A stretch of 64,000 nucleotides of DNA from Octopus vulgaris (taxonomy: Eukaryota). Positions 37,138-64,000 of this stretch are shown one piece after another. How positions within the stretch are numbered: position 1 is the first letter of the stretch; each line of letters begins with the position of its first letter. The stretch covers positions 48,918,001-48,982,000 of the forward strand of contig OX597822.1 in NCBI GenBank assembly GCA_951406725.2. The letters run 5' to 3'. A program made the translations under genes and the position numbers. Under the pieces are notes generated by a model. That model did no database searches, was not told where the DNA came from, and saw nothing but the letters and a program-made list of their open reading frames with translations.

Positions 37138-37208
37138 ACCATTTCGGAGTTTGGAACCAATCATGTTTATGCTGCTGGAACATTTAATGAAATGAGACCA
37201 AAGTCAAG
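37138..37208 (+). CDS. NAGLU: NAGLU exon 10 (TISEFGTNHVYAAGTFNEMRPKS), phase 0/2; contains first catalytic Glu
   Basis: aAG acceptor, GTTTGA donor, 71 nt; TFNEM motif (human E316 equivalent). Confidence 0.93.
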
Positions 37209-47542: not shown

Positions 47543-47615
47543 GATTTCAGGTTATGTGTCAAGACGTTATGGTACCACAAATCAGTTGATCGACTCTGGC
47601 TGGCAATTGTTGCGA
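47543..47615 (+). CDS. NAGLU: NAGLU exon 15 (ISGYVSRRYGTTNQLIDSGWQLLR), phase 2/0
   Basis: cAG acceptor, GTAAGT donor, 73 nt; RRYG..W.LL motif. Confidence 0.96.
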
Positions 47616-52962: not shown

Positions 52963-53049
52963 AATAGTGTTTATAACTGCACAGATACCCATAGACATCA
53001 CAGGAATTTAGGTATTGTGAGACGCCCAACATTACATAAGAAAGACAGA
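52963..53049 (+). CDS. NAGLU: NAGLU exon 16a (NSVYNCTDTHRHHRNLGIVRRPTLHKKDR), phase 0/0
   Basis: cAG acceptor, GTATGT donor, 87 nt; matches human RSVYNCS..PLVRRPSL as recalled. Confidence 0.93.
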
Positions 53050-53877
53050 GTATGTCCTCCTTCAAGAACTTTGATGATTATCTTGTTGTTGTTGTTAATG
53101 TTGTTGTTGTTAATGTTGTTGTTGTTAATGTTGTTGTTGTTTAACCTTAAGTCAGTACTGATTGAGGAGACTAATAATATCAAAAAGCATTCAAGCTGTA
53201 ATCTTGTTTTTCTTTTCAGGAATTTGCATAATAGTTATCCTGTGTGCTTTTTTTTTTTTCCATAAGATAGTCTGGTGTGATTTCAAGGAGATTTGGTGGC
53301 TATTTCTAGCTAGTTAAGGTACTTCTTTATACACACACATTTCCTTAAATATATGTCAAACATACACAAATACAACATTTTTAAGATATACAAACAGCCA
53401 CACAAATACACATGTAGGCACACTTTTCTCAAAACAAAAAAAAAAACGGAATTCCATAGCCAATGAGACAAACAGACAGTCCTTTTCTTTTTACTCACAA
53501 AACAATAACCCCAAATCACTCTACAATGAAAAGCACAGTTCATTAGGCATATATCACAATATAGATATATCTAATTAGCTTTACAGCTAAACCAAAGCAT
53601 TGCAGCCTCTTGCTATTTTAACTTGTTTTCAATACTGTTCTTGTTAAAGAATAATAAATTTGTACTTTATTAAATGCATTTAGTAATCCTTCAATTTAGA
53701 TAGATTGTTAGCCACTACACACATCTTATTTCTCTCCTTGTGTTCTGTGTCCCTTTCTGTAGAAGAGTCTAGGCTCGAAAGGTAAAAAACTTTTTCTATT
53801 CCTGAGCATTATACTAATACATCTGTTTATTTTGTACACCACCTGTCTTCATCTTTTGTTATTTTTTTCATAAACTC

Positions 53878-53927
<50 letters not shown>

Positions 53928-53931
<4 letters not shown>

Positions 53932-54233
53932 GGCACACGGCTCAGTGGTTAGAGTTCGAATCCTGGACTGAGCTGCGTGTTGTATTCTTGAGCAAGACAC
54001 CTTATTTCATGTTTCTCCTGTTCACTCATCTATAGAAATGAGTTGTGACGTCACTGGTGTCAAGTTGTATTGGCCTTTGTCTTTCACTTGGATAACATCG
54101 GTGGCATGGAGAGGGGAGGCTGGCATGTATGGGCGACTGCTGGTCTTCCATAAACAACCTTGCCCGGACTTGTGCCTCAGAGGGTAACTCTCTAGATGCA
54201 ATCTCATGGTCGTTCGTGACCGAAGGGGGTCTC
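53928..54233 (+). mobile_element. tRNA-derived SINE (deleted head)
   Basis: GGCTCAGTGGTTAGAGTTCGAATCC head followed by TTCTTGAGCAAGACAC core. Confidence 0.65.
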
Positions 54234-54799
54234 TGATATATATATATATCATCATCATCATCATCATTTCATGGCAATGGAGGCAGGACCATCCAACCCT
54301 TGCCAGCACAGTTGCTGGCAAGGGTTGGATGGTCCTGGCTCCATTGCTTGTTTTGGTGTGGATTCTACAGCTTGTTGCCCTTTCTCATACCAGCCTTTTT
54401 ACAGAGTGTACTGGGTGCCTTTTGCATGGCACCAGCACCAATTTATAAATCCTCATCATTTTGTATCTGTATTCCGTACTCATATATATCATCAAGATCA
54501 GGATCATCATCAGTATATGTGTGTGTGTGTTTGTGTGTGGCCAGCAGATTTAGGGTAGGGACTAACTTGGATAAATCAACCCCAGTGTTCAACTGGTACT
54601 TATTTTATAAACCCTGAAAGGGTGAAAGGCAAAGTTGACTCCAGCAGAATTTGAACTCAGAAATTCTGCCATGGTTTAAAGTGTAAGATTCAAAGTATAT
54701 GTTTTTTTTTAATAGATAAAATTTCAGAAATTATTTGCACTGACAGATGAGAATTTTTGATTTTCTTAAGTTGTAGACTGTTATAAAGTGGGTCCTTGT

Positions 54800-55790
54800 T
54801 CACTTGTATGCTGTTGGTGGTGACACTAATATTCTTGTCACCACTATTATGTTGTGGCCGTATTCTGCGTCTTATTATCTTTGACTCGTCTATTGTACTA
54901 TCACTGATAGCTCTGCAAGACGACTTGTAACATCTTTCTTGATGGTAACTCGAATTTGTATGTCACATAACTGACACTGACTCCAACTAAAATCTCATAC
55001 AATGACTCTACTACTACTGACCTTCCTACAATGACTGACTGTCTGACTTTATAGTGGCTTCTGATACCACTTTGTCATGTGGGAAGGAGTGTACCATTTT
55101 CACTACATCTCATCTTTTAGCTTTTTTTTCTTTCGGAAGCAAGCAATTTTATTTTACTTTATTCACCCATCCTCCATTTTTAGCTTTTTTTCCCAATTTA
55201 ATATTTTTTCTTTTTGGCGTCTATTTGTAGGAACTCTGTATGCTTCCTTTTTCTTCCACTTGTACTCATGGGTTCAACCACCTGTAATGGTGTTGGTACC
55301 TGGAATGGGTCATACAACCATTCCATAGGTTCTATCAATCTGTCTGGTTCATTTCCTATGAATCTCTTCTTCAATTGGTTTCTGTGTCATTTTTCAATAC
55401 CATTTTTGTTTTTAATTCTGTACATCATTTTTCCTATGTGCTTTGTAATTTTTCCTTCTTCCTAGTATTGCTTTCTGTTTTTCTACAACCTCATGTATAC
55501 CTTCACCAATTAAAAAAAAATTTTGATTGTCTTTCCTGGTACTTCTTTTTCCACCTGGCAACAAAAACTGATTTCGTCTTCCTTGCGAACATCAGTTCAG
55601 CTGGTGAGCTTCCTTTTGATGTATTAGGGTATGGTGTCACCCTGTATGCCCTTAGAAATTGCTGCAAAGTGACTTCGTCTGTGGTTTCCTTGTTTGCTTT
55701 TCTCAAACAAGTGTCTGCAAAAAGCTCTGCCTTTCCATTTGATCTGGGATGGTAAGGCGCTATCATATCAGTTTGCTGTACTTTCAAGGC
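54800..55790 (-). mobile_element. Gypsy integrase fragment, PPT and LTR (54850-55107)
   Basis: APYHPRSNGKAE..LQQFLRAYRVTP..SSPAELMFARK integrase motif; purine-rich AAAAGATGAGA before TGTAGTG; LTR ends CAACA. Confidence 0.85.
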
Positions 55791-55929
55791 AACAATTATA
55801 AATGTGCCTTTTCATTTGCTGAGTTAACCTGATGTCTGACATTATTTATGTGAAAAGTAAGTTAAAAAGTAAGTTAAAAGTAAGTTAGAGCTCTTAAAAG
55901 AAGTGTCCTTAAAAAAACAAAATTTATGC

Positions 55930-55995
<66 letters not shown>

Positions 55996-55996
<1 letters not shown>

Positions 55997-56138
55997 TTTA
56001 TTTAAAGCAGCAGAAATTCAATAAAACCTGTTACTCTGAGTTTCCCGTTCCCGTTCGTCGGACAGTTTTTGTTCGACGAACGGGAACGTGAAACTCAGAG
56101 TAACAGGTTTTGTTGAATTTCTGCTGCTTTAAATAAAG
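55996..56138. ncRNA. 69-bp hairpin formed by two inverted minimal hammerhead-ribozyme-like motifs (Penelope-type)
   Basis: Arms 55996-56064 and 56070-56138 (66 WC pairs, 2 GU, 1 mismatch; 5-nt loop). Each arm reads (C/T)CGACGA-acg-ggaa-cg(t/g)-GAAAC-tc-a-ga-GTA-aca. The hairpin is certain; ribozyme activity is not. Confidence 0.6.
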
Positions 56139-56207
56139 CATATTACTCTACCCCTAGTATTTGAGTACTCTTTTTTCCACCTTGTTTCACATCTATGTGT
56201 TTACTCC

Positions 56208-56253
<46 letters not shown>

Positions 56254-56556
56254 CAATGGAGAAGTAACTAGTATTTCAGATTTTATTTCTATTTGTCATC
56301 TAACACTTGTTTTCCTTCCAGAGACATTTCTAATTTCAAAACAAAAATCTTTCTTTGTTGCTAATTTATGCAGTCATTATTTTTTCTAGTTTCTACATAA
56401 CTCAACAAGTTTCCAGTAACCCACTGCTAAAAACCCTCGCTCAAAGTACAAAAGCTCATCTATTTCCTCTAGGTGTCTCACTTGATTTAAGTTAGTTTCA
56501 TTGAAGAAAATAGTTTTTCTTAATCTGATTTATTTATTTTCTTTGCATGCTTTAAG

Positions 56557-56649
56557 TCAAGTATTTACAATTGTACCACTGGTATCTCAGATGGTGGATG
56601 GAATGTGGTTTATGTACAAAGACCCAAAGTAATGTTTCGAAAAGAAGTA
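56557..56649 (+). CDS. NAGLU: NAGLU exon 16b, diverged duplicate of exon 16a (SSIYNCTTGISDGGWNVVYVQRPKVMFRKEV), phase 0/0
   Basis: Pyrimidine-rich acceptor ending tttaAG, consensus GTAAGT donor, 93 nt open; retains S[VI]YNCT and V.RP motifs. Confidence 0.8.
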
Positions 56650-58084
56650 GTAAGTTAACTTATATACTTCCCTATCCTTCTCTATCCTTTATACTTTCCC
56701 TATCCTTTATATCAAAGGTGCTTTTTTAAAACCCCTTTTTGAAGTTTTGTTTACTTTTTAAGTTTCTGCATTATTTAAGTTAAGTTTTTAATCACATTAT
56801 TATCTCCATCCTATTTGCCAATTTTAATCTGCTGGTTTCAGTAATATTTCACATTTGTTTCTTTCTTCCTTACCTTTTTGTGCTATTTTTACACATAAAT
56901 GAGTGAATTGATAGAAAAGTAAGTAAAAAAATACCTTAAGTAATTTATTATATCCCTTTACATTCTACGTTCAAACCACCCAATTTCACTTAATTTTTCA
57001 TCCCCCTGTTAATAAAATAAGTACTGATGGTTGATGTAATCAACTATAAAAAATGTAGCATGACATTTGAAGATGAAAAACAAACTCAATTTTCTAATAG
57101 TTAACCAATTTATTATTTTTTAAAATTGAACCATATAGGGTGTACAAACTAACCTCAAAATTAAGCTTTTGACTCAGTGTAAATTGAACAATTTGAAAAA
57201 AAATTGTAAATTTTAAGTGAACATAAAATCTAATAAGTTCTCATTCATGACTTCATTAAAATAGGGAACTTTCTTGCTGACTGCAATCAACAGGTCTGCT
57301 TTGGACTCAGGTAATTCTTAGATTTTGCCTTGATTGACAAAAGAAATCTGAATTTGGACTTATATAAGTTTGTCATTACAAATGGTATAAGGATACAATT
57401 GTTGGGTGTAATCACTAAAGGAGTAAATCTGTTTAGGTAGAAATAATAATAAAAGTTAATTCATCAGAGATGTAATTGCATCATTTTTCTAGAAAAGTCA
57501 ACATAATCCTTGCTGTACTTTAGCAGAGCGACAGAAGAAAAAAAAATGATTTTGTTTTAGGTATTAAGTATAGGTTGTTGGTTTGAAAACAAAATAACTT
57601 AATAACTATAACAATATGCTATTAACTTACCAGTCTATAACAGCCATATTGAGGATTGGTGACTTCAAATATTTATGATCTATCATTGCCCCAACTCGCA
57701 ACTCATCAATTGTCAATTTGAAGAATTTGATCTCCAAATATTGAAATACCCATCCAACACTACCTCATTGTTGAAAATGTTTGAGACAATACAATCTTCT
57801 TTGCACACTCATCCGGAAAACCTTATTTTATCTCAGCTCTGAACAAACCTTTATTGGCTCCAGTTATTGGCGCTACTTGCATCTAGCAACCTTGCCTTTA
57901 TCTTGCTACAAATTTTAAATTTGCTGGTAGTAGAGTATCCTGAAATATCCCGAAAAGGACTCAGCAGGATCTCTGCATAATTGCTCAGAGTCAGATACAA
58001 GTGACTGCATTTCATATGTGACTTCCCACTTCTCTGTATTTGAAGAGGTTGTTTAACCTCTTGGCTTATATTTCCTTTTATTTT

Positions 58085-58800
58085 TTTACTTGTTTCAGTC
58101 ACTGGACTGTGGTCATGCTGGGACACTACCTTGAAGGATTTAGTTGATCAACTCAACACCAGTACTTATTTTTTTAAGTCTGGTATTTATTCTATTGGTA
58201 GCTTTTCCTGAACTGTTAAAGTATGGGGATGTAAACAAATCAATATTGGTTGTCAGGTAGGGTTGGTGGGAGGACAAACACAAAGACACAGACCCCTCCC
58301 CCCAACCTATGTACTTTTATCTTTTACTTGTCTCAGTCATTGGACTGCAGCCATGCTGGACCACTGTCTCGAAGGATTTAGTGAAAGAAATCAACCCCAG
58401 TACTTCCTTTTTTTAAAGCCTGGTATTTATCCTATTGGTCTTGTTTGCCAAGTTATTAAGTTATGAGGACATAAACAAACCAGTACTGGTTGTCAAGCAG
58501 TGGTGGAGGACAAACACAAAGGGTAAAGACACACACATATACAACAGGCTTCTTTCAGTTTCCACTCACAAAACTTTAGTTGGCCCAAGGCTACAATTGA
58601 AAACATTAGCACTTAGATGCCTCACGGTGGCACTGAACCTGAAGCTATGTGGTTGGGTAGGCTTTGTTTTAGCTTCTCTCTACCAAATTCATTCACATTA
58701 ATCTTCTCAGTCTATACTAGAAGATACTTGCTTAAGGTGCTGTGCTGTGAGACTGAACCTGAGATCAGATGGTTGTGAAATGAGCTCTTTAACCATTCAG
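58085..58800 (-). mobile_element. Older, diverged tandem SINE copies (25599 family relatives)
   Basis: TTACTTGTTTCAGTCA..GGACTG..CCATGCTGG motif repeated at ~58087 and ~58324. Confidence 0.65.
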
Positions 58801-58921
58801 GTGTGTTTGCATGTAAGCTGATATTACTGAAGTGGAAAGAAGTCTTTGTACTTTATTCATTTTAAATGTTTAATAGTTTTTCATTTGAAGATTATATATG
58901 AGAGAGTGAGTGAGTGAGTGA

Positions 58922-58973
<52 letters not shown>
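58922..58973. repeat. (GA)n microsatellite
   Basis: Directly visible. Confidence 0.97.
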
Positions 58974-58977
<4 letters not shown>

Positions 58978-60169
58978 TTCAAAACAATGAATGCTGATGG
59001 TGGAGTTACTTTGTTGGTTATCACATGAAGACATCAACTATGGTTATCCTTTTTGCTTCTCTTATTTTTGTTCTCCGGATTTCTATTCGGAAGCTATTTT
59101 TCGTTCCATTCTAGGAAGGAATTTAATCATTTAGTTTCAACATTTAATCATTTATTCTCTACCCTTGAACTGAAGTTCTCTCCCTTGAACTTATGTTCAA
59201 GGGAGGCAATAAATGATTAAATGTAAGAAGAGTTATTTCCCCTGAATTCCTAATTAGTCCCGCTGTGTAAAGTGTCATCATCATTTCTCTTTAAAATATG
59301 TTGTCGTGCCTTTGATCATTCTCATTCATTAATATGTTAGTAAATTCTTGACATTAACTTGGGAACTCTGATTTTTCAACATTTTGTTTTGAAGCTTGCA
59401 TTTTATGAGGGAACCTTTGCTCAGTTTTCTCAAAATAGCAACCAAATCACCCTATGCCATACCCTACTGTCTTAAAAAAAAGGGAAGTTGTAGATGATTT
59501 TTTTTAAAAAAAAAGACTGTATGATCAGAACTGGAATGCTTCATTATAGATCTGCTTGATGAGGGCTTACCTGGAACTAAAACTGGATTTCCACGATCTT
59601 CATCTCTCACCACCATCACTGTCATTTCATTGTCATCATCAGCATCATTCATGTGATACTCAACCCCTTCTTTCCTACTTTCCTCCACCACATACACACA
59701 TACATCTCTACGTTTGTAATTTAAAATAATACATGTTTACCATGGACTTCCGGTAATGCATGTACAATTATATACAATATTCAGCTAGAGTTAGCTGCAC
59801 CATAACTACACATACGAGCCCCATAATTTTCAAAACAAGAAAATTGCAGCAAACCTGTGTGATAGTAGTGTCAGATATAGTATGCAGACCATCATATAAC
59901 TTGTTCAACATATTTCTTATGTGATATCTCAATGGTGCACCTTCCTTTCCTGCTCCTTTTTGCATGGCCTTTAGTAATACATTGTTGCCAGAAAACTGTC
60001 CATGAACTCAATAATGTAGAATTTAAATTTCTAGTGATTTTATTTAAGTCATCTTTGCTGTTCAAGTTCAGCTGTTTTAAGAACTCCAAATTTGATAAAA
60101 ATGTTATTAAATTGCTGTTGGGTTAACAGATTTAACAACTGAATTAAAATTTTTCAATTTATAAACAAT

Positions 60170-60611
60170 ATCCTCGGTTGTGAGGGATGATGAATGGACA
60201 TCTTATAGTCGTGATTCATATCGAGCCCGTCTGAGTATTAGCGTGCATCTACGATGAGTCTACGATTTAAAAAATAATTTAACATCATTTTTTTATTCCA
60301 TTTTAATGCATAATTTTTTGTGTGTCGATGGCGGCGGAGTTGGCGTCCATGGTCACACCTGCACCTGTTTGCTTCTCCCCCTTCTTCCCTCCCTCGTGAA
60401 GCTGTGGGGAAGGGAGTGTAAGGAAATCAACGTCGTAAAGCGTTGTCAAGGAGACCAGCGTTCTTTTAGAACAACGACTTCATGGCTTGAAGACACCAAA
60501 ACAGAAATGGCTAAGAAAGCCCGAATTGGCATCTATAAGGAAAGTAACTCTCTAAAAATGCTTATATAGTTATTTCCCTTACAAACCCGAGCAACGCCGG
60601 GCGATACTAGT

Positions 60612-60612
<1 letters not shown>
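60170..60612 (-). mobile_element. Helitron/Helentron-like element
   Basis: Reverse complement of 61669-62068. Confidence 0.7.
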
Positions 60613-60646
<34 letters not shown>

Positions 60647-60816
60647 ATATATATATATATAATATATATATATATATTATATTTAAATATATAATATATA
60701 TATATATATAATATATATATATATATTATATATATATAATATATATTACATATCATATATATATATAATATATATTACATATCTCTCTGTCTCTGTCTGT
60801 CTGTGTCTCTCTCTCT

Positions 60817-60853
<37 letters not shown>

Positions 60854-61166
60854 ATATATAAATATACAAAGATTCTATAATTATACTGAGGGGCCAGCTA
60901 ATTGCTTTGCCATGCACTGATTTAGAAATAGGAGCTAAATACCTATTCTACTACCATAAAAGGTCTCCGAGACAGTAAACACACAGCTGTATTTCGTCTG
61001 TCGTTACATTCCGACTTCAAATTCCGCCGAAGTTGACTTTGCCTTTCATCCTTTCGGGGTTGATAAATTAAGTACCAGTCACGCACTGAGGTTGATGTAA
61101 TCGACTTAATCCATTTGTCTGTCCTTGTTTGTCCTCTCTGTGTTTAGCCCCTTGTGGGTAGTAAAG

Positions 61167-61213
<47 letters not shown>

Positions 61214-61599
61214 ATATATATATATCTCAGTGAGACATCCAAAGAGATAGGTACAGGAGTGGCTGTGTGGTAAGTAGCTTGCTTACTAACCACATGTTTC
61301 TGGGTTTCAGTCCCGATGTGTGTCACTTTAGAGGGATGGCTTCTACTATAGCCTCAAGCTGACCAAAGTCTTGTGAGTGGAAACTGAAAGCAGCTTGTCA
61401 TATATATGTATATGTTTGTGTGTCTGTGTCACTCCACCATCACTTGACAACTCCCCCTAACTTAGCGGTTCAGCAAAAAAAGACCGATAGAATAAGTACT
61501 AGGCTTACAAAGTCCTGGGGTCGATTTCTTCAACTGAAGGGTGCTGCTCCAGCATGACTGCAGTCAAATGACTGAAACAAATAAAAGAATATATATATG

Positions 61600-61646
<47 letters not shown>

Positions 61647-61668
61647 AGTAACATGTATATATATATAT

Positions 61669-62165
61669 ACTAGCAGTATCGCCCGGCATTGCTCGGGTTT
61701 GTAAGGGAAATAACTATATAAGCATTTTTAGAGAGTTACTTCCCTTATAGATGCCAATTCGGGCTTTCTTAGCCATTTCTGTTTTAGTGTCTTCAAGCCA
61801 TAACGTCGTTGTTCTAAAAGAACGCTGGTCTCCTTGACAACGCTTTACGACGTTGATTTCCCCACAGCTTCACGAGGGAGGGAAGAAGGGGAGAAGCAAA
61901 CAGGTGCAGGTGTGACCATGGACGCCAACTCCGCCGCCATCGACACACGAAAAATTATGCATTAAAATGGAATAAAAAATGATGTGAAATTATTTTAAAA
62001 ATCGTAGACTCATCGTAGACGCGCGCTAATACTCAAACGGGTTCGATATGAATCACGACTATAAGATACCCGAATTTGGTTAAACTGCACCGCAAAATGT
62101 GGGAGTAGTTAGGAATCTAAATCGATGGGGACAGACACTCACACAACTACAGTTTTATATATATA
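61669..62165 (+). mobile_element. Helitron/Helentron-like element
   Basis: ACTAGCAGTATCGCCCGGCATTGCTCGGG start; homologous to the 22514 and 60170 copies. Confidence 0.7.
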
Positions 62166-62565
62166 TATGTATGTATCTGTGATACATATATATATATATA
62201 CACATTAGTAAAATATATATATATATCTGAATATATATGTGTAATATACATATATATACATGTAATATATATAGCTGAGAAATATCGTTATAGGTATTAA
62301 TATACCATAAATGATTATATAAAAATAGAGGACAAAAAGATGTTGCATCAAAATTAGATTTGTATTAAATCTAATTTTGATGCAACTTCTTATTCTCCTC
62401 CAATTTTATATAATTATTTATTGTATATTTATACGTATAATGAGATTTTTTAACTACTATTTTCGTATTCTTATTACTTGCTCTGGCTGTTTTTATGAAT
62501 ATGATGAATCTATATTAGAATTCATTCTTTCTCTCTATTTGGACACACAGTCAGTACTGCGCCTA

Positions 62566-62568
62566 TAA

Positions 62569-62601
<33 letters not shown>

Positions 62602-63297
62602 CATATATATATATAAATATAAATACATAAATATATAAATATATATATATATATGTATATATATATACATATATATATATAAATATAAATACATAAATAT
62701 ATAAATATATATATATATATGTATATATATATACATATATATATATAAATATAAATACATAAATATATAAATATATATATATATATGTATATATATATAC
62801 ATATATATATATAATATAAATACATAAATATATAAATATTTATATATATATGTATATATATATACATATATATATATAAATATAAATACATAAATATATA
62901 ATATATTTATATATATATGTATATATATATACATATATATATAAATATAAATACATAAATATATAAATATTTATATATATATGTATATATATATACATAT
63001 ATATATATAAATATAAATACATAAATATATAAATATTTATATATATATGTATATATATATACATATATATATAAATATAAATACATAAATATATAAATAT
63101 TTATATATATATGTATATATATATACATATATATATATAAATATAGATACATAAATATATAAATATTTATATATTTATGTATATATATATACATATATAT
63201 ATATAAATATAAATACATAAATATATAAATATTTATATATATATGTATATATATATGTATATATATGTGTATATATATATACATGTATATATATATG

Positions 63298-63330
<33 letters not shown>

Positions 63331-63355
63331 GTGTATATATATATATATATATAAA

Positions 63356-63389
<34 letters not shown>

Positions 63390-63400
63390 GTATATATATG
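62566..63400. repeat. Higher-order AT minisatellite (~60-bp unit built from (TA)n blocks)
   Basis: Unit ..ATATGTATATATATATACATATATATATAAATATAAATACATAAATATATAAATAT.. repeated about 11-12 times. Confidence 0.92.
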
Positions 63401-63660
63401 TATATATTTATTTCTTTACTACCCACAAGGGGCTAAACACAGAGAGGACAAACAAGGACAGACAAACGGGTTAAGTCGATTACATCGACCCCAATACGTA
63501 ACTGGTACTTAATTTATTGACCCCCGAAAGGATGAAAGGCAAAGTCCACCTCGGCGGAATTTATATATATGTATATATATATATATATATATATCATCAT
63601 CATCATCATCGTTTAGCGTCCGCTTGATGATGATGATGATATATATATATATATATATGA

Positions 63661-63713
<53 letters not shown>

Positions 63714-63714
63714 T

Positions 63715-64000
63715 TTACTCTTTTTACTTGTTTCAGTCATTTGACTGCGGCTATGCTGAAGCACCGCCTTTAGTTGAGCAAATTGACCCTGGGACTTATT
63801 CTTTGTAAGCCCAGTACTTATTCTATCGGTCTCTTTTGCTGAACCGCTAAGTGACGGGGATATAAACACACCGGCATCGGTTGTCAAGCCATGCTAGAGG
63901 GACAAACACAGACACACAAACATATACACACACATACATATATATACATATATACGATAGGCTTCTTTCAGTTTCCATCTATCAAATCCACTCACAAGAC
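63715..64000 (-). mobile_element. tRNA-derived SINE (25599 family), truncated by window end
   Basis: Reverse-complement match. Confidence 0.88.

What the first reader, a model, noticed from the sequence alone, without database searches (positions are those of the whole stretch)
52963..56649. Tandemly duplicated NAGLU exon (16a/16b): candidate mutually exclusive splicing of a substrate-contacting loop
Seen: two phase-0/0 exons 3.5 kb apart encode homologous peptides, NSVYNCTDTHRHHRNLGIVRRPTLHKKDR (87 nt) and SSIYNCTTGISDGGWNVVYVQRPKVMFRKEV (93 nt). Both are open, both have GT-AG sites, and both keep the NCT glycosylation sequon and the V.RP motif despite heavy nucleotide divergence. No other NAGLU exon is duplicated in the window. 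Known: this segment corresponds to human NAGLU ~499-529 (YNCS, N503). As I recall from the human structure, it forms a loop at the rim of the active-site cleft with basic residues implicated in heparan-sulfate binding; this needs verifying. Inference: the 16a loop is His/Arg-rich (HRHHR, RR), whereas 16b replaces that part with neutral/aromatic residues (GISDGGW). A splice switch could therefore give two enzymes from one gene, for example one for sulfated glycosaminoglycan and one for neutral alpha-GlcNAc glycans. I know of no such alternative exon in vertebrate NAGLU.
Basis: partly seen in the sequence, partly recalled or inferred. Interest (0 to 1): 0.88.

Follow-up and report, generated by a model that had tools for sequence, protein, structure and literature searches.

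The report
Swappable active-site exon in octopus NAGLU
An octopus gene for a lysosomal sugar-trimming enzyme has two copies of one small exon, spliced in one at a time in the sequencing runs examined, which swaps a loop at the mouth of the active site and likely gives two enzymes with different sugar preferences; the same exon is also swapped in protein records of cuttlefish, clams, snails, locusts and an acorn worm.

Summary
Real. Exons 16a (52963-53049) and 16b (56557-56649) are the only duplicated exon among 21 tested in a single NAGLU gene. In 4 of 4 public runs (RNA by guess, four studies) each copy forms its own exon15-16x-17 contig and no a-to-b joint is listed; a fifth run shows only b. 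The same segment is swapped in 15 of 30 protein clusters checked (clams, snails with up to four forms, locusts, an acorn worm). Some RefSeq models carry both or neither copy, so exclusion may be leaky. Substrate difference is inferred, untested. The scan noted this before in a marine worm (e1-7275099); RefSeq lists the isoforms; I found no paper. A new member of a known kind (tandem-duplicated mutually exclusive exons).

The parts
52963..53049 (+). NAGLU exon 16a, 87 nt, phase 0/0; keeps the human R510/H512/R519/R520 equivalents; net +5, 4 His
56557..56649 (+). NAGLU exon 16b, 93 nt, phase 0/0; D-or-S/G/Q at 510/512/519, adds a Trp; conserved across octopods and decapods
   Evidence: joints 47615->56557 and contigs
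53050..56556 (+). 3,507-nt GT-AG intron between the two copies, with repeats; too long for steric exclusion; no a-to-b joint listed
47543..47615 (+). Constitutive exon 15; its donor joins to either 16a or 16b
56650..64000 (+). Start of the intron to constitutive exon 17, which begins beyond the window at window-equivalent 72559 (L005:8559)
   Evidence: loose ends match the exon 17 start
37138..37208 (+). Exon 10, with the Glu that aligns to human catalytic E316
   Evidence: E316/E446 named in a passage of PMC13207710
44134..44282 (+). Exon 14, with the Glu that aligns to human catalytic E446

Best explanation
A single octopus NAGLU gene splices either exon 16a or exon 16b between exons 15 and 17, giving two full-length proteins that differ only in a 29-31 residue loop at the active-site cleft, which likely changes which sugar chains the enzyme accepts. 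Shown: one gene, two copies, separate one-copy contigs, conservation of b. From alignment plus literature: the loop carries human R510, H512, R519 and the point where C. perfringens GH89 has its aglycone-selecting Trp loop; the catalytic Glu residues are in constitutive exons, so both forms should still remove terminal alpha-GlcNAc. Inferred: form a (R/H/R, basic) is the human-like heparan-sulfate-trimming form; form b (no His512, acidic or polar 510, added Trp) prefers a less anionic aglycone such as GlcNAc-alpha-1,4-Gal or a dietary glycan. Inferred by elimination: exclusion is set by regulated splice-site choice (trans-acting factors or distant RNA pairing) and may be leaky, because spacing, intron type and frame cannot enforce it.
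For: One NAGLU locus in G000. Joints 47615->52963 in 2 of 4 and 47615->56557 in 3 of 4 runs. Two single-exon contigs (146/140 and 152/146 nt) in 4 of 4 runs, depth a:b 284:215, 232:449, 33:47, 29:15; 0 of 3 listed joints is a->b. Run X2 shows only the b joint, with a contig running through exon 15 unbranched and depth 1.9 over a, a hint of sample-specific choice. 11 of 11 full-length decapod-like Logan proteins carry one copy: 5 of one form, 6 of b. b forms a starred clade of 5 (97/93), 55-68% identical between octopods and decapods, as conserved as its neighbours exon 15 (58-71%) and 17 (50-57%). Residue map and PMC6789092 passage. PMC8225759 passages: the CpGH89 loop 680-686 with W685 is proposed to select GlcNAc-alpha-1,4-Gal; by my count it is inserted about 5 residues after the RP motif, inside this segment. 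Position 512 differs between copies in 13 of 15 gene sets (not independent). Both forms fold on the same scaffold, mean pLDDT 91.3 and 91.5; b model matches 4XWH at TM 0.92.
Against: No assay. RefSeq models with both copies (O. sinensis X1, Mercenaria X1/X2, Ruditapes X1/X2, several Schistocerca) or neither (O. sinensis X4) exist, and Logan contigs drop rare variants, so strict exclusion is not shown; the 15->17 skip could not be seen on the stretches laid. The runs are RNA by guess only and contig depth is a poor measure of expression. The decapod partner of b is not basic and only 38-41% like octopod a. Deleting the CpGH89 loop raised activity on GlcNAc-GlcA only twofold. The active-site role of R510/H512/R519 comes from one secondary passage; the primary structure papers were not held. 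The loop is the low-confidence part of both models (pLDDT 59-78 in a, 75-83 in b) and I had no coordinates to measure distances. The segment is also variable among single-copy genes (mean conservation 0.52).
Confidence: 0.6

Rival explanations
1. The exons are mutually exclusive and both useful, but the swap tunes something other than aglycone choice: pH optimum (four His versus none), stability to proteases, oligomer contacts, or lysosomal versus secreted/digestive routing.
For: a has 4 His, b none; the loop is an irregular surface segment with a glycosylation sequon in both models; the CpGH89 loop deletion had only a twofold effect.
Against: The changes fall on the three positions listed as active-site residues; both copies keep the sequon; position 512 is what differs most often between copies in other species.
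Confidence: 0.24
2. The duplication recurs simply because this is a short symmetric (phase 0/0) exon in a tolerant loop; the two forms are near-equivalent and kept by drift or weak selection.
For: Phase 0/0 and multiple of three; low family-wide conservation of the segment; copy number varies from one to four among molluscs.
Against: b is kept open and 55-68% identical across a split dated to the Late Carboniferous or Permian (PMC5360930 passage), while a and b within one genome share 10 residues; both forms are at similar depth in 4 of 4 runs; other phase 0/0 exons of this gene (exons 10, 12 and 13 by the splice sites, in part) are not duplicated.
Confidence: 0.1
3. These are two independent cassette exons: both-copy and no-copy transcripts are a normal part of the output, for example to down-tune activity.
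For: RefSeq models with both or neither copy; all four combinations keep the frame.
Against: Unbranched one-copy contigs in 4 of 4 runs and no a->b joint; 0 of 11 decapod-like full-length proteins has both or neither.
Confidence: 0.05
4. 16b is a pseudo-exon or belongs to a separate paralogue.
For: A lone stray copy of exon 14 exists elsewhere in the genome, so fragments of this gene do get copied.
Against: b is joined to the same exons 15 and 17 in contigs; one NAGLU locus; b is open and conserved.
Confidence: 0.01

Closest known systems
Tandem duplicated exon substitutions / homologous mutually exclusive exons (PMC9741552, passages seen; PKM and PFKP named there)
   Same: Two homologous internal exons, one used per transcript, swapping a surface or ligand-binding segment; convergent origin in orthologous genes is described for this class.
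   Different: NAGLU does not occur in that paper's main text (0 hits); its examples are enriched in ion channels and come from human, fly and nematode; convergent events there mostly hit different exons, whereas here the same segment recurs.
RefSeq (Gnomon) NAGLU isoform sets, e.g. XP_029641944-7 (O. sinensis), XP_052826471-2 (O. bimaculoides), XP_070194727-30 (Littorina)
   Same: List the same alternative segments.
   Different: Automatic models without interpretation; include both-copy and no-copy forms that the contigs here do not show.
Human NAGLU (GH89, PDB 4XWH)
   Same: Same fold (TM 0.92, 43% identity), catalytic Glu pair, YNC..RP loop with N503 sequon; form a keeps R510/H512/R519.
   Different: Human has six exons with residues 341-743 in the last, so the loop cannot be swapped by this splicing; form b has no counterpart.
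Clostridium perfringens CpGH89 W685 loop (PDB 4A4A; PMC8225759 passages)
   Same: The same segment is proposed to set preference for the sugar next to GlcNAc.
   Different: A 7-residue insertion in a bacterial enzyme, not a splice switch; the Trp of b lies at a different position (human 513 region).

Membership tests
GH89 / NAGLU | NAGLU TIM-barrel and C-terminal domains | tested here: met
   PF05089 and PF12972 over cut-off at this locus; Foldseek 4XWH E 6.6e-68
GH89 / NAGLU | Two catalytic Glu (human E316, E446) | tested here: met
   Aligned; both in constitutive exons
GH89 / NAGLU | Exo-alpha-N-acetylglucosaminidase activity | not testable with these tools
   No assay
Tandem duplicated mutually exclusive exons | Adjacent homologous exons, same phase, similar length, in one gene | tested here: met
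Tandem duplicated mutually exclusive exons | Each copy joined to the same upstream and downstream exons | tested here: met
   Joints and loose ends, (contigs, RNA by guess)
Tandem duplicated mutually exclusive exons | Copies never together and never both skipped (strict definition) | tested here: inconclusive
   No a->b joint in 4 of 4 runs, 0 of 11 decapod proteins; but RefSeq both/neither models exist, contigs drop rare forms, and the skip joint was not observable
Tandem duplicated mutually exclusive exons | Both copies conserved across species | tested here: met
   b across octopods and decapods, a across three octopods; orthology of a to the decapod partner unresolved
Dscam-type docking/selector exclusion | Competing intronic RNA duplexes near the exons | tested here: inconclusive
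   0 of 10 pairs of 300-nt flanks beat all 20 shuffles (best 2 of 20); no second genome for covariation; distant elements not tested

The most novel reading that the evidence does not exclude
The active-site-rim loop of NAGLU has been made into a swappable specificity module several times independently across bilaterians (molluscs with 2-4 copies, locusts, an acorn worm with a longer 54-residue unit), so invertebrates make a family of alpha-GlcNAcases from one gene; the His-to-Gly form shared by coleoids and clams acts on an alpha-GlcNAc glycan other than heparan sulfate. These natural loops would be a ready-made map of what sets aglycone specificity in the Sanfilippo B enzyme.
Probability: 0.4. 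Interest if true: 0.72.

Novelty: new member of a known kind. Interest (0 to 1): 0.5.

Why it matters
GH89 has few characterised members (human and a few bacterial enzymes per PMC8225759), and what makes one cut heparan sulfate and another mucin glycan is argued from one bacterial loop. Here nature swaps that segment on an otherwise identical protein, a clean controlled comparison that needs only two constructs. It bears on human NAGLU (Sanfilippo B) and on which alpha-GlcNAc glycans invertebrates make or eat. The recurrence of exon duplication at one segment in three phyla, if the origins are independent, is a strong case of convergent alternative splicing outside ion channels.

Tried and rejected
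Third copy in the 25-kb cluster: none. Other duplicated exons: none of 20 others. Second NAGLU gene: the weak C11 hit is a lone exon-14 fragment. Docking/selector pairing: nothing above shuffles; inverted-repeat scan was dominated by simple repeats. Single versus repeated origin: the 30-column exon tree leaves 26 of 67 inner branches open; cephalopod b groups with clam Gly forms at 91/87 (not starred), and an AU test does not reject a cephalopod-only duplication (p 0.284), so unresolved within molluscs. No RNA holder on record was listed; run X11 did not cover the exons, which is no evidence. I laid 6 of the 24 listed runs. A further homologue search with the decapod b region gave nothing new. 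Literature: five searches aimed at prior description and two wider ones listed no paper on this; I saw listings and abstract starts only, the library lacks most subscription journals, and I did not search supplements, where genome-wide exon catalogues could list this gene. Birrane 2019 and the two Ficko-Blean papers were not held. No vertebrate cluster was looked up for isoforms. dN/dS could not be computed (no orthologous DNA).

Full report
Observation. They share 10 identical residues, a score reached by 0 of 5000 shuffles, and 45 of 93 DNA columns. The window lies at G000:C9:48918001-48982000 of a 2.8-Gb genome; a NAGLU exon of the window is 100% identical over 50 residues to Octopus proteins. 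Family searches found one NAGLU locus; exon b matched only itself. Mapping three homologues on 184 kb gave the exon series, with exon 15 ending at 47615 and exon 17 starting beyond the window at window-equivalent 72559. A profile from 60 non-cephalopod exons found only these two copies among 309 open candidates (E about 1e-10; best elsewhere 0.2), and per-exon profiles showed a second copy for 1 of 21 exons.

Splicing. No listed run was on record as RNA; 24 were listed, most guessed RNA, and I laid 6. In one search, joints 47615->52963 appear in X1 and X9, and 47615->56557 in X1, X2 and X9 (in X9 read three letters on); X2 shows only b, with depth 1.9 over a; X11 does not cover the exons; 193 further joints were not shown. 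On a narrower stretch, 4 of 4 runs from four studies hold one contig for a (146 or 140 nt) and one for b (152 or 146 nt), the size of exon plus short flanks. The flank letters were printed for X1 and X9 (both sides of both exons) and X12 (5' of b) and match the end of exon 15 and the start of exon 17. The three joints listed are all at repeats; none is a->b. This is the two-armed bubble expected of mutually exclusive exons. Contigs drop rare forms, the 15->17 skip could not be seen, and depth (a:b 284:215, 232:449, 33:47, 29:15) is only a rough guide. Against strictness, RefSeq lists O. sinensis X1 with both copies and X4 with neither, beside X2 (b) and X3 (a).

Conservation. O. bimaculoides has a and b forms, Argonauta an a form. 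Eleven full-length unnamed proteins that group with Sepia each carry one copy: 6 b and 5 of another form. The b copies form a starred clade (97/93), 55-68% identical between octopods and decapods, no less than the neighbouring exons; the coleoid crown is dated to the Late Carboniferous or Permian (PMC5360930, passage). The decapod partner is 38-41% like octopod a and is not basic; whether it is the orthologue of a is open.

Wider spread. Of 30 protein clusters looked up (chosen partly for isoform labels, so no frequency estimate), 15 show alternative versions of this same segment: four cephalopod, Mercenaria, Ruditapes, Mya (3 forms), Patella, Physella, Pomacea, Littorina (4 forms), two Babylonia paralogues, Schistocerca and Ptychodera. 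These are gene models and protein records; I saw no genomic DNA or reads for them. Termite, tick, crinoid and jellyfish clusters showed one form. In Ptychodera the swapped unit is 54 residues (exons 15+16 here), and one locust copy groups with single-form insect exons (99/89), which points to separate origins (inference). Within molluscs the origin is unresolved.

Position in the protein. By count on the 4XWH alignment the exon is human R499-S528. A passage of PMC6789092 lists R510, H512 and R519 among active-site residues in the cleft between domains II and III; the primary paper was not held. Form a has R, H, R there; b has D (pairwise) or S (multiple alignment), G and Q, with a Trp next to the Gly. 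Position 512 is His in 22 of 35 single-form rows and differs between copies in 13 of 15 gene sets; clams show the same His/Gly pair as coleoids. In C. perfringens GH89 an extra loop 680-686 with W685 is proposed to select GlcNAc-alpha-1,4-Gal over uronic acid, and deleting it doubled activity on GlcNAc-GlcA (PMC8225759, passages); my count places it about five residues after the RP motif, inside this segment. AlphaFold models of the a form (P0127) and the O. sinensis b form (P0006, one residue different from the window's b exon) fold alike, pLDDT 91.3 and 91.5, with the exon as an irregular loop at 59-78 and 75-83; the b model matches 4XWH at TM 0.92. No coordinates were available to measure contacts.

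How it most likely works. Shown: one gene, two mRNA forms. Established knowledge plus alignment: catalysis sits in constitutive exons; the swapped loop lines the cleft. Inferred: a is the human-like heparan-sulfate form and b prefers a less anionic aglycone (about 0.6). For exclusion, the copies are 3,507 nt apart, both introns are ordinary GT-AG, and all four combinations keep the frame, so steric clash, spliceosome mismatch and nonsense-mediated decay (the standard routes, recalled) do not apply; near-exon RNA pairing was not above shuffles in 10 tests. Regulated site choice, possibly leaky, remains.

Comparison and verdict. This is a GH89/NAGLU gene with a tandem-duplicated exon substitution, a known class in which convergence is documented (PMC9741552, passages; NAGLU absent from its main text). 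Human NAGLU cannot do this because its last exon encodes 341-743. Searches listed no paper describing it (listings only; supplements and most subscription journals not seen). Real, conserved, apparently undescribed, directly testable, but a known kind of device with an untested function: interest 0.5.

Noticed in passing
L017:4364-4616 (G000:C11, about 73715864-73716116, minus strand): A lone 94%-identical copy of NAGLU exon 14 with flanking intron on another chromosome; the catalytic Glu reads Gly; no other NAGLU exon within 9 kb. Orphan fragment among repeats.
   Followed up: partly
window 37138-37208 (exon 10): Octopod NAGLU has Gly where human has Asp four residues before the catalytic E316 equivalent; cuttlefish-like proteins keep Asp.
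   Followed up: no
P0217 (Mya arenaria isoform X1): A third, 39-residue version of the exon with a Gly-rich insertion, the longest branch in the exon tree.
   Followed up: no
P0039, P0180, P0020: A strongly basic exon class shared by limpet, periwinkle and an unnamed mollusc protein (99/98), suggesting that part of the cluster is old within molluscs.
   Followed up: partly
P0013/P0146, P0015/P0145, P0183/P0185: Unionid mussels, Pomacea and Babylonia have two NAGLU paralogues whose loops also differ: gene duplication as a second route to the same diversity.
   Followed up: no
window 60417-60646 and 61637-61866: 230-nt inverted repeat, 93% complementary, 990 nt apart, in the intron after 16b; a possible RNA-editing substrate or mobile element, not examined.
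   Followed up: no
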